Source: a virus
Taxonomy: Duplodnaviria; Heunggongvirae; Uroviricota; Caudoviricetes
Strand: one strand, 5' to 3'
Length of the DNA: 19,629 nucleotides
IMG/VR virus record: IMGVR_UViG_2551306674_000013
In this document: positions 18,001 to 19,629 of the stretch, piece by piece
How positions within the stretch are numbered: the first letter of the stretch is position 1
How the letters are laid out: every line of letters begins with the position of its first letter
Position numbers: made by a program

Positions 18001-19629
18001 GCACATCGTATTAAATGCACCGTCTTTCCCTTTAACAGTCCCATCATGTTTTATTCCTTTTACAGCCCCGTCCGGGCTGTATGTTTTCACCAGCTTATCC
18101 AGTGATCGTTTTGAAAATGGCTGCATTGGATCACGTGGCTGCAAAAATACATAATCCCTGTTGCACTCAGGAACTGAATCACGCCAGGCTTTCTGCTCGT
18201 CGATAATCCGCCGGATCTCAGGCGTTATCGGCAGGCGGAAAGCCTTTTGTGTTTTCATAGCCCCTCGCATGCCGATAACCCCTTCCGGATAAACAATTTC
18301 ACCAGCCTCCTCGTGAACGTAGTCCCAGCGCAGGTTATGGACATTAATCGGGCGAACACCAGTGATGATCATGAAGCGAACAGCATTCTTCTGGTGTACA
18401 GAGGTGCAGGCAGCAACATTGAGCCAGAGTCGGGCGATTGATTCAATATCGGTAAAAAGCCGTGTGGGGGTAGGTTTCTGTACGCGGGAGGAAACATAAT
18501 CATCTGGCAGACTGGCGGCAACATTGCGGCCGTTGCAAAGAGTAGGTGCGCAGAACTTCCAGAACCGACGGAGCTCGGCAAACAACTCCAGGGCGTTATT
18601 GTTCGAGCGAGTGGCGATCCACTCGTCCAGCACTTCCACCAGTCGACTGTATGTTACGTCGCTGAACACCTCGCGCTCGCCGAACGTTGATTTAATCCGG
18701 TCGATACGCACCCCGTAGGTTGTGAAACTGTCCGGGCTCAGCTTCTGCCGGGCGACTTTGGCTTTGAGGTCATCCCGGTACATTTCCAGCGCTGCATGTA
18801 CGGACTCTGCCCGCAGGCCACAGTCAGCCATACCTAGCGCTTTTTCGCGCGCCAGCTGGATAGCGAGCTCCGGCCACTCGCCAAGCTTTTTACCCTTGAG
18901 GCCCATCTTTTTTGGAAACTCGGCGTAAAATGTAACCTTACCGGCTTTGCTGAAATCGATACGGAGATAGTTCTCTTTTTCGTATTTGGAACGGCGAGCC
19001 ACGCCGGAAGCAGCGAGGATGATTTTGGCGGCAGCAACACAGATTTCATGTGTGCGCTGGTATAGGGGGGTTTACAGGCGTCCCATTTTTCAGATGCGGC
19101 TAAAACATCGTCATTATTGGGGCTATCCGGATTATGTGTTACAGTGCGCGGCATTCTCAATCCTTATCTGCGTAGGCGCAGAAAACAAGCTCACACATAC
19201 AAGTCTTTTCTACGGGACAAAATGCAATGTGTTGCGGTTTTGTGTTGCTGGACTGAGTTTATCAAGGTTAAATATACTGGATCAACATACAGTAAGTTAA
19301 TGACAGTAAAGCATACAAACTCGATACAACTTACTGATTTTAAAATGATTTAACGGTAATCCATTGAAATGTCTTTACTAATTACTAAACGCTGTATTAA
19401 TTGTGATATGTGTGAACCCGAATGCCCGAATGAGGCGATTTCAATGGGAGATCATATCTACGAGATTAACAGCGATAAGTGTACCGAATGCGTAGGGCAC
19501 TACGAGACACCAACCTGCCAGAAGGTGTGCCCGATCCCCAATACTATTGTGAAAGATCCGGCGCATGTCGAGACAGAAGAACAGTTGTGGGATAAATTTG
19601 TGCTGATGCACCACGCGGATAAAATTTAA

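What the first reader, a model, noticed from the sequence alone, without database searches (positions are those of the whole stretch)
19003..19368. Prophage-host junction upstream of yfhL with no tRNA; att core not identifiable from one end
Seen: integrase start (19002) and host yfhL start (19369) are separated by 366 bp containing an AT-rich segment and a 9-bp inverted repeat CAGTAAGTT/AACTTACTG (19290..19336); no tRNA-like T-arm sequence is present. Inference: the phage integrates in the intergenic region upstream of yfhL (a protein-gene-proximal att site rather than a tRNA).
Basis: inference. Interest (0 to 1): 0.4.

Follow-up and report, generated by a model that had tools for sequence, protein, structure and literature searches.

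The report
Prophage attachment site inside yfhL

Summary
The junction is real, but it lies outside the stated coordinates. Comparison with K-12 (empty site) and three lysogens puts the attachment core at window 19399-19416 (AATTGTGATATGTGTGAA), which is codons 11-16 of yfhL. One lysogen with a variant core confines strand exchange to GATATGTG (19405-19412). Everything left of the core is phage DNA, including the "yfhL start" at 19369, its first 10 codons and the whole 19158-19368 spacer. The phage carries a surrogate yfhL 5' end ([10 protein letters not shown] instead of MALLITKKCI), so the gene stays full length.

The integrase starts at ATG 19157 (465 aa in all relatives), not 19002. The window has a private 1-nt deletion at 19044-19046 that frameshifts it.

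In 5,426 complete E. coli genomes, 160 carry this arm, always next to yfhL, and the other 5,266 have an intact site. Integrase relatives sit beside yfhL in 16 of 17 loci from other Enterobacterales.

The 9-bp inverted repeat exists but is marginal. Its left arm is half of a conserved LexA-box-like palindrome (19275-19294). Conserved TGTGTTGC repeats are probably integrase arm sites.

yfhL was already published as a prophage site (2013, 2020, 2023, 2025). Low interest.

The parts
17561..17761 (+). Candidate excisionase: a 66-aa HTH protein. It is convergent with int and its 3' end overlaps int's by 4 nt. It is the last gene of the rightward early operon.
   Evidence: Pfam HTH_17 scores 25.8 bits, just under the 27 cut-off. 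PHROG 4745, and the excisionase PHROGs 66 and 1553, also match. The homologous ORF in Serratia phage OS31 is annotated as excisionase.
17758..19157 (-). Tyrosine integrase gene, frameshifted in this window. Intact relatives are 465 aa and start at the ATG equivalent to 19157.
   Evidence: Pfam PF00589 scores 30.4 bits against a 27.1 cut-off. PHROG_1 integrase matches at 2e-26. The intact 1398-nt gene is seen. It is 77% identical to the integrase of Serratia phage OS31.
19044..19046 (.). Site of the 1-nt deletion that frameshifts int (TTT here, TTTT in relatives).
   Evidence: Shown by pairwise alignment with strain 89-3156. None of the 160 E. coli copies shares it; the best match is 99.4%, which equals this one gap. 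It could be a real mutation or a homopolymer assembly error.
19158..19398 (.). Int-proximal arm of attP.
   Evidence: Present in 160 of 5,426 E. coli genomes, one copy each, always beside yfhL. It has no counterpart in K-12. It is alignable across genera.
19189..19198 (.). Conserved block GCTCACACAT. Its reverse complement ATGTGTGAGC resembles the core's ATGTGTGAA.
   Evidence: Nearly invariant in about 18 arms from different genera. The shared 9-mer TATGTGTGA is found inverted in the arm and direct in the core. Function is not tested.
19228..19248 (+). Two direct TGTGTTGC repeats (19228-19235 and 19241-19248), 13 nt start to start. These are candidate arm-type integrase binding sites.
   Evidence: Nearly invariant across genera while the flanks diverge. 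All four TGTGTTRC matches in the 19.6-kb window fall within 19034-19248. The same motif occurs as two direct copies plus one inverted copy in the far arms of 89-3156, Sx181 and H10407.
19275..19294 (.). LexA (SOS) box-like palindrome TACTGGATCAACATACAGTA.
   Evidence: Scores 19.8 bits on a matrix built from E. coli LexA sites recalled from memory, whose median is 19.3. The next best site in the window scores 7.6. ACTG-N10-CAGT occurs once against 0.23 expected. Orthologous positions in other genera score 9.7-21 bits. Binding is not tested.
19290..19336 (.). AACTTACTG.
   Evidence: Exact. The left arm overlaps the right half of the LexA-like box. The right arm abuts the conserved TGATTT block. 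There is no covariation across genera and the fold is weak.
19369..19398 (+). Phage-borne surrogate for yfhL codons 1-10 ([10 protein letters not shown]; native MALLITKKCI).
   Evidence: Alignment with K-12 gives 21 of 30 identical bases, mostly synonymous changes. The native version persists at the left junction of lysogens. The surrogate occurs only in the 160 integrase-carrying genomes. Serratia phage OS31 carries an equivalent segment.
19399..19416 (.). Attachment core: 18 bp, AATTGTGATATGTGTGAA, shared by attL, attR and attB. It is yfhL codons 11-16 (N C D M C E), part of the first Cys-x-x-Cys-x-x-Cys motif.
   Evidence: attB is from K-12. attL is from 89-3156 and H10407. The core occurs once in the window.
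19405..19412 (.). Segment GATATGTG, within which strand exchange must occur.
   Evidence: In lysogen Sx181 the phage core differs from the host core on both sides of this octamer. attL carries host T on the left and phage CGCC on the right; attR carries phage C on the left and host TGAA on the right. This rests on a single lysogen.
19369..19629 (+). Hybrid yfhL: phage codons 1-10, the core, then host codons 17-86. It is full length, 86 aa.
   Evidence: It differs from K-12 YfhL by 2 of 86 residues. It matches NCBIfam YfhL NF033683 at 135 bits. It is annotated as intact YfhL in all lysogens inspected.

Best explanation
Window 17758-19416 is the integrase end (attR) of a lambdoid prophage whose tyrosine integrase recombines inside the coding sequence of the ferredoxin gene yfhL. 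The 18-bp core AATTGTGATATGTGTGAA (19399-19416) encodes part of the first Fe-S cysteine motif, and strand exchange falls within GATATGTG (19405-19412).

Because insertion separates yfhL from its promoter and first 16 codons, the phage carries a look-alike 5' end on the int-proximal arm: upstream sequence, ATG and codons 1-10. Integration therefore rebuilds a full-length yfhL with two conservative residue changes. The native 5' end remains as a stub at the other prophage end.

Shown: the position of the core, the empty site, the phage origin of 19158-19398, the intact hybrid reading frame, and the specificity of this integrase family for yfhL.

Inferred:
- The TGTGTTGC repeats are arm-type integrase sites.
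- The LexA-like box at 19275-19294 puts a promoter in this arm under SOS control. That promoter would drive either int, which needs its own promoter because it is convergent with the xis operon, or the rebuilt yfhL.
- The conserved coding sequence is what makes the site reusable across Enterobacterales.
- In this window the integrase is broken by a frameshift. If that is real, the prophage could not excise using its own integrase.
For: Position of the junction:
- K-12 and the window are identical from 19399 to the end of yfhL, and diverge upstream of it.
- The left junctions of 89-3156, Sx181 and H10407 read native yfhL codons 1-10, then the core, then phage DNA.
- The 18-bp repeat is identical at both ends in 89-3156, whose attR is 100% identical to the window's.

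Occupancy in 5,426 complete E. coli genomes:
- 5,266 have an unbroken site and 160 have a split one.
- The same number, 160, carry the int-proximal arm, the integrase 5' end and the surrogate yfhL start.

Other genera:
- 16 of 17 integrase relatives (58-99% identity) have a full yfhL lying divergent about 214 nt from the int start.
- Serratia phage OS31 (integrase 77% identical) has an annotated 23-bp att repeat that is the same yfhL codons, and it carries the same kind of surrogate start.
- The OS31 paper places that repeat in a 4Fe-4S ferredoxin gene (PMC7556043).

Literature on yfhL as an insertion site: PMC3603311, PMC10675304, PMC12029490.

Arm anatomy.
Against: - The window does not contain the left prophage end, so the direct repeat is shown in homologous lysogens, not in the source genome.
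- The 8-bp crossover segment rests on one lysogen (Sx181) and assumes its host had the standard attB.
- No promoter for the rebuilt yfhL or for int is established. Consensus scans give weak candidates on both strands (8-9 of 12) that are not consistently placed across genera.
- The LexA matrix was built from sites recalled from memory.
- In the Serratia and Erwinia copies the right half-site reads CAC rather than CAG.
- One whole-window shuffle in 40 reached a comparable LexA score of 19.7.
- No strict IHF consensus is present in the arm.
- The integrase has only a modest Pfam score, and no PDB or NCBIfam match.
Confidence: 0.9

Rival explanations
1. One reading: the phage ends in the intergenic spacer (19003-19368), all of yfhL is host DNA, and the divergent first 30 nt of yfhL are just a host allele.
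For: yfhL is full length and annotated as an ordinary gene in lysogens. Megablast against most genomes extends the host match back to 19379 through the partly similar surrogate.
Against: - The same genomes hold a second, native copy of yfhL codons 1-16 at the other prophage end.
- The variant start is found only in the 160 integrase carriers.
- No E. coli with an unbroken yfhH-yfhL junction is unaccounted for: 5,266 + 160 = 5,426.
- A phage from another genus carries its own version next to int.
Confidence: 0.03
2. The 9-bp inverted repeat is itself the functional element: an RNA or DNA hairpin such as a terminator insulating yfhL from the phage, or a dimeric protein operator.
For: It is exact. 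Both arms are unchanged in the most diverged E. coli copy (Sx181, 88% identical), while the 29-nt spacer has 11 changes. The fold z-score is -2.3.
Against: - At the background divergence outside the 29-nt spacer (17 of 212 positions, about 8%), zero changes in 18 arm positions has a probability of about 0.2, so the conservation is not informative. This is my own calculation.
- In Kluyvera, Citrobacter, Shimwellia, Sodalis and more distant genera the arms change without compensation. What is conserved is ACTG-N10-CAG on the left and TGATTT on the right.
- The stem is AT-rich with a 29-nt loop, and the terminator scan did not pick it up.
- About 6% of shuffles give such a repeat.
Confidence: 0.1
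3. The palindrome at 19275-19294 is not a LexA site but a binding site for a recombination accessory protein (Xis, IHF, Fis) or for the integrase. Its likeness to the SOS box is coincidental.
For: It lies in the att arm between the candidate arm sites and the core, where lambda-type sites hold Xis, IHF and Fis sites (established knowledge of lambda attP). Six of the 17 aligned orthologous arms scored have CAC in place of the critical CAG.
Against: - Its score equals the median of genuine E. coli LexA boxes, and it is by far the best site in the window.
- There is no IHF consensus.
- Members of this phage family have clear LexA boxes on the other arm too: upstream of dinI in Sx181 and OS31, and CTGTACATAATTACAG in H10407.
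Confidence: 0.3

Closest known systems
Serratia phage vB_SspS_OS31 integration module (Int J Mol Sci 2020, PMC7556043; record MT843276.1)
   Same: The integrase is 77% identical over 464 aa. The arrangement is the same: int divergent from the ferredoxin gene and convergent with a small HTH excisionase. The published 23-bp att repeat covers the same yfhL codons. It has the same paired TGTGTTGC repeats and the same surrogate 5' end.
   Different: The host genus differs and so does the core sequence (AACTGCGACATGTGCGA against AATTGTGATATGTGTGAA). The right half of the LexA-like box reads CAC. The paper does not describe the surrogate 5' end, the arm repeats or this box.
Published yfhL-inserted prophages of E. 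coli (Bobay et al. 2013, PMC3603311; Stx prophages in PMC10675304 and PMC12029490)
   Same: Same locus. The nearest complete relative of the window's att region, strain 89-3156, carries an Stx2a prophage there.
   Different: Those papers name the gene only. The 2013 paper lists yfhL among genes 'disrupted' by integration. Here the reading frame is rebuilt with a phage-supplied start, and the core is defined to 18 bp, or 8 bp for the crossover.
Phage 21 and e14 integration in icd (established knowledge, not re-tested here)
   Same: Integration inside a conserved protein-coding gene, with the element carrying a diverged duplicate of the displaced gene end so that a functional hybrid gene results.
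   Different: Those elements replace the 3' end of icd. Here the 5' end is replaced, so the promoter and translation start also become phage-derived.
Stx phage Phi24B int/xis arrangement (NAR 2011, PMC3064807)
   Same: The integrase is inverted relative to lambda and needs its own promoter, while xis stays on the repressor-controlled leftward-type operon. Here int and the xis-like ORF are convergent and overlap by 4 nt.
   Different: The integrase and target site are unrelated. Phi24B's int promoter was mapped by 5'-RACE and is not reported as LexA-controlled. Here the promoter is unmapped.
Lambda attP/attB paradigm (established knowledge)
   Same: A short core shared by phage and host, a crossover segment of about 7-8 bp, and repeated arm-type motifs on both sides of the core and next to int.
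   Different: No strict IHF consensus was found. The core lies inside a gene. The integrase is 465 aa and matches Pfam only over part of the catalytic domain.

Membership tests
Tyrosine-integrase prophage attachment site (attL/attR/attB with a shared core) | A tyrosine recombinase gene adjacent to the junction | tested here: met
   PF00589 scores 30.4 bits against a 27.1 cut-off. PHROG_1 integrase matches at 2e-26. In this window the gene is frameshifted.
Tyrosine-integrase prophage attachment site (attL/attR/attB with a shared core) | The same short sequence at both prophage ends and once in the empty site | tested here: met
   The 18-bp AATTGTGATATGTGTGAA is present in attR (window, 89-3156), attL (89-3156, H10407) and K-12 attB. 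The window's own left end is not available.
Tyrosine-integrase prophage attachment site (attL/attR/attB with a shared core) | Uninterrupted site in relatives that lack the element | tested here: met
   5,266 genomes have the site intact and 160 have it split. The 160 split sites match the count of integrase carriers.
Tyrosine-integrase prophage attachment site (attL/attR/attB with a shared core) | Repeated arm-type motifs flanking the core | tested here: inconclusive
   TGTGTTRC motifs are clustered, conserved across genera and present on both arms. This is computational only; protein binding is not testable here.
Tyrosine-integrase prophage attachment site (attL/attR/attB with a shared core) | Excision and integration regenerate attP and attB | not testable with these tools
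   Needs PCR or sequencing after induction. The paper on the related phage OS31 reports that DNA of the mitomycin-induced phage was isolated and sequenced (PMC7556043).
Tyrosine recombinase superfamily | Catalytic Arg-Lys-His-Arg-His/Trp-Tyr set | not tested
   The Pfam match covers only profile positions 14-117 of 172, and there was no PDB hit to align against. Candidate residues conserved between the E. coli and Serratia proteins are visible (TGVRP, CRKF, HHS, HY/FY), but I did not verify them structurally.
tRNA/tmRNA-targeting integrases | Core overlaps the 3' part of a tRNA or tmRNA gene | tested here: not met
   ARAGORN finds none in the window and Rfam finds nothing in 18800-19629. The core lies in a protein-coding sequence.
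LexA (SOS) box | CTG-N10-CAG palindrome that fits the E. coli consensus TACTG(TA)5CAGTA | tested here: met
   TACTGGATCAACATACAGTA matches 16 of 20 consensus positions and scores 19.8 bits, at the median of known sites. The matrix was built from sites recalled from memory.
LexA (SOS) box | Overlaps a promoter and is bound by LexA | not testable with these tools
   Weak promoter-like hexamers overlap it on both strands. There are no binding or expression data.

The most novel reading that the evidence does not exclude
The conserved LexA-like box sits inside the int-proximal arm of attP. It could make integrase synthesis, and hence excision, directly SOS-dependent. Alternatively or in addition, it could put the rebuilt host gene yfhL under SOS control in every lysogen, so that lysogeny rewires the regulation of a conserved ferredoxin. 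LexA bound within the arm might also affect assembly of the recombination complex itself.
Probability: 0.3. Interest if true: 0.45.

Novelty: already known. Interest (0 to 1): 0.2.

Why it matters
The result mainly corrects an annotation.
- The host-phage boundary lies 30-48 nt inside yfhL.
- The apparent host promoter region and start codon are phage DNA.
- The integrase is 52 codons longer than the open frame suggests, and it is broken in this sequence.

For people typing Stx and other prophages by insertion site, the 18-bp core and the two diagnostic 5' ends (native and surrogate) allow exact junction calls. They also show that yfhL is rebuilt rather than 'disrupted'.

The site illustrates why some integrases choose protein genes. 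The crossover sits in the DNA that encodes the Asp-Met-Cys part of an Fe-S cysteine motif, which stays nearly constant across Enterobacterales, so one integrase family can use the same gene from E. coli to Serratia and Erwinia.

The conserved LexA-like box in the arm is a small, testable lead.

Tried and rejected
- tRNA or other RNA target: ARAGORN and Rfam were both negative.
- Isolated-phage records: megablast of the int-att region against the phage collection found nothing relevant. A protein search found only Serratia OS31.
- IHF consensus WATCAANNNNTTR: no match in the att region.
- Hairpin or terminator reading of the inverted repeat: the fold is weak, the terminator scan gave no hit, and there is no covariation.
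- K-12's native yfhL upstream region as a fossil phage arm: it contains TTTGTGTTG, but the local alignment is not significant (p about 0.12) and the motif is polymorphic (TTTCTGTTG in H10407).
- Promoter assignment by conservation: the best hexamer pairs differ between clades and strands, so no promoter is claimed.
- Naming the integrase through solved structures or NCBIfam: no hits.
- Finding the source genome: no complete E. coli genome matches the whole window. The best match covers 90% at 99.3% identity.

Full report
**What is at the coordinates**

The window's last 2 kb holds three genes:
- a minus-strand integrase gene;
- a 66-aa HTH gene (17561-17761, +) whose 3' end overlaps the integrase's by 4 nt;
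- yfhL (19369-19629, +), which runs to the window end.

ARAGORN finds no tRNA or tmRNA in the whole window. Rfam finds nothing in 18800-19629 even at E<=1. The inverted repeat CAGTAAGTT / AACTTACTG at 19290-19298 / 19328-19336 is exact. The spacer is AT-rich: 36% GC against 48.7% for the window.

**The integrase start is wrong**

The ORF list gives 17758-19002 (GTG) only because a frameshift closes the frame there. A second frame opens at ATG 19157. In strain 89-3156 and every other copy examined, the gene is 1398 nt (465 aa) and begins at that ATG. Serratia phage OS31 has a co-linear 465-aa protein that is 77% identical from residue 1.

The window lacks one T of a TTTT run at 19044-19046. None of the 160 copies in complete E. 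coli genomes shares this gap; the best identity is 99.4%, which equals the one gap. The deletion is therefore private to this sequence, either a real inactivating mutation or a homopolymer error. The true int-yfhL spacer is 211 bp (19158-19368).

**Where the junction really is**

All 5,426 complete E. coli genomes match the 3' part of yfhL, but only 160 match the integrase side.
- Aligned with K-12, the window is identical from 19399 to the stop codon. Upstream of that it is only similar: ATGTCTTTACTAATTACTAAACGCTGTATT against ATGGCGTTGTTAATCACTAAAAAATGCATC. Further upstream it is unrelated.
- In 89-3156, whose right junction is 100% identical to the window's, a 46.7-kb Stx2a prophage lies between yfhH and yfhL.
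- Its left junction reads yfhH, the native yfhL promoter region, native codons 1-10, AATTGTGATATGTGTGAA, then phage DNA. H10407 shows the same.

The repeat shared by attL, attR and attB is thus 18 bp, window 19399-19416. These are yfhL codons 11-16 (N-C-D-M-C-E) of the first Cys-x-x-Cys-x-x-Cys motif.

A lysogen with a diverged phage (Sx181, arm 88% identical) narrows the crossover. Its attR reads AATTGCGATATGTG-TGAA and its attL reads AATTGTGATATGTG-CGCC. Phage-type and host-type bases therefore switch on either side of GATATGTG, window 19405-19412.

**Consequence for yfhL**

The ATG at 19369, codons 1-10 and everything upstream of them are phage DNA. The phage brings a surrogate 5' end, so the rebuilt gene is full length. 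It differs from K-12 YfhL at 2 of 86 residues (A2S, K8R) and still matches the YfhL equivalog model at 135 bits.

The native start survives at attL. In 89-3156 it is fused to phage sequence as an 18-codon stub.

The surrogate start is found in exactly 160 genomes. That is the same count as the arm and the integrase. The unbroken yfhH-yfhL junction is found in the remaining 5,266. A host-allele explanation is therefore excluded.

**Generality**

A scan of one genome per species found 17 integrase relatives (58-99% identity). They come from Kluyvera, Citrobacter, Shimwellia, Shigella, Sodalis, Serratia, Pantoea, Erwinia, Symbiopectobacterium, Providencia and others. In 16 of them a complete yfhL lies divergent from the integrase, about 214 nt from its start.

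The exception is a Raoultella contig, where the integrase follows a primase-like ORF.

In Serratia phage OS31 the record's annotated 23-bp attachment site is the reverse complement of TGCATCAACTGCGACATGTGCGA, the same yfhL codons. Beside it sits ATGGCTTTACTAATTACAAAGCGG, that phage's own surrogate start.

**Anatomy of the arm (19158-19398)**

Aligning about 18 arms shows islands of near-invariance in otherwise diverged sequence:
- GCTCACACAT (19189-19198);
- two direct TGTGTTGC repeats 13 nt apart (19228-19235, 19241-19248);
- GAGTTTATCA (19255-19264);
- an ACTG-N10-CAG palindrome (19275-19294);
- TGATTT (19335-19340);
- the surrogate yfhL start.

TGTGTTRC occurs four times in the 19.6-kb window, and all four lie within 19034-19248. 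The far arms of 89-3156, H10407 and Sx181 differ greatly from one another, yet each has two direct copies and one inverted copy. I read these as arm-type integrase sites. That is an inference; binding is untested.

**The LexA-like box and the inverted repeat**

TACTGGATCAACATACAGTA scores 19.8 bits on a matrix built from E. coli LexA boxes that I listed from memory. The median of those sites is 19.3, the next best site in the window scores 7.6, and one of 40 whole-window shuffles reached 19.7. ACTG-N10-CAGT occurs once against 0.23 expected. Orthologous positions in other genera score 9.7-21 bits, although the Serratia and Erwinia copies have CAC for CAG.

The right arm adjoins the conserved TGATTT.
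- Across genera the two arms change independently.
- The hairpin is weak: -9 kcal/mol, z = -2.3.
- A repeat of this kind turns up in about 6% of shuffles.

I therefore treat the inverted repeat as incidental to two separately conserved elements.

Which promoter the box would control is open. The integrase is convergent with the xis-containing operon, so it needs a promoter in this arm, as was mapped for Phi24B (PMC3064807). Weak candidates overlap the box on both strands:
- plus strand: TGGACT-18-TATACT;
- minus strand: TTAACT-18-TATATT, or TTGATC-18-TAAACT preceded by TG.

None of these is consistently conserved. Family members also carry clear LexA boxes on the other arm, for example upstream of dinI in Sx181 and OS31.

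**Comparison with what is known**

- yfhL is listed among genes hit by prophage integration in E. coli and Salmonella, described there as disrupted (PMC3603311).
- It was reported as a 'newly identified' Stx prophage site in 2023 and appears again in 2025 (PMC10675304 and PMC12029490).
- The 23-bp repeat in the Serratia ferredoxin gene was published in 2020, with the remark that many prophages sit in homologous genes (PMC7556043).
- Rebuilding a target gene with a phage-borne duplicate is classical (phage 21 and e14 in icd; my own knowledge). Here the 5' end is replaced rather than the 3' end.

What this analysis adds is detail:
- the E. coli core and the crossover octamer;
- the fact that yfhL is rebuilt rather than disrupted;
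- the candidate arm sites;
- the LexA-like box;
- the broken integrase in this window.

**Verdict**

This is a real and well-supported prophage attR of a known, yfhL-specific integrase family. Interest is low. The only lead with some novelty is possible SOS control exerted from within the att arm.

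Noticed in passing
window 19044-19046 (int, minus strand): A 1-nt deletion in a T4 run frameshifts the integrase after codon 37. None of the 160 E. coli copies has it. It is either a locked-in prophage or a homopolymer assembly error.
   Followed up: partly
window 19275-19294: A LexA-box-like palindrome, TACTGGATCAACATACAGTA, lies in the att arm and is conserved at the same position from E. coli to Serratia, Erwinia and Providencia.
   Followed up: partly
window 19034-19248: All four TGTGTTRC matches of the 19.6-kb window cluster here. Two are inside the integrase 5' coding region (19034-19041 on the minus strand, 19135-19142 on the plus strand).
   Followed up: partly
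window 17758-17761: The integrase and the xis-like HTH gene are convergent and overlap by 4 nt, so int cannot be co-transcribed with the early operon. The arrangement resembles Stx phage Phi24B.
   Followed up: partly
L001 2137-2147 (K-12, about 50 nt upstream of the core): The native yfhL upstream region contains TTTGTGTTG, the same 9-mer as the phage arm repeat. The local alignment is not significant (p about 0.12), and H10407 has TTTCTGTTG instead.
   Followed up: yes
L020 129-3907 (Raoultella scottii contig): A 90%-identical integrase with a different, longer N-terminus follows a 587-aa primase/VapE-like ORF on the same strand, with no yfhL beside it. It may belong to a different kind of element or use a different target.
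   Followed up: no
L027 39600-39680 (Sx181), L028 8753-8768 (H10407), L009 1597-1618 (OS31): There are good LexA boxes on the far att arm of family members. In Sx181 and OS31 they lie upstream of a DinI-family gene that reads away from attP.
   Followed up: partly
window 5817-13046 and 16170-17564: The early region encodes an unusual replication set for a lambdoid prophage. Names are taken from the matching 89-3156 annotation: DUF2800, DUF2815, a 687-aa DNA polymerase, VRR-NUC, an SNF2-type helicase and, upstream at 1220-3481, a VapE-domain protein. The polymerase is intact here but annotated as frameshifted in 89-3156 and H10407.
   Followed up: no
L021 and L022 (E. coli ECMA0423, Shigella flexneri SFBU1023): The integrase match stops at residue 366 at 99% identity in both, suggesting a truncated or interrupted int. 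yfhL in ECMA0423 aligns only in fragments, consistent with assembly frameshifts.
   Followed up: no
L027 2651-3412 (Sx181 prophage): A TIR-domain protein lies between the DNA polymerase and ANR-family regulator genes, where the 89-3156 prophage encodes the Ant antirepressor.
   Followed up: no
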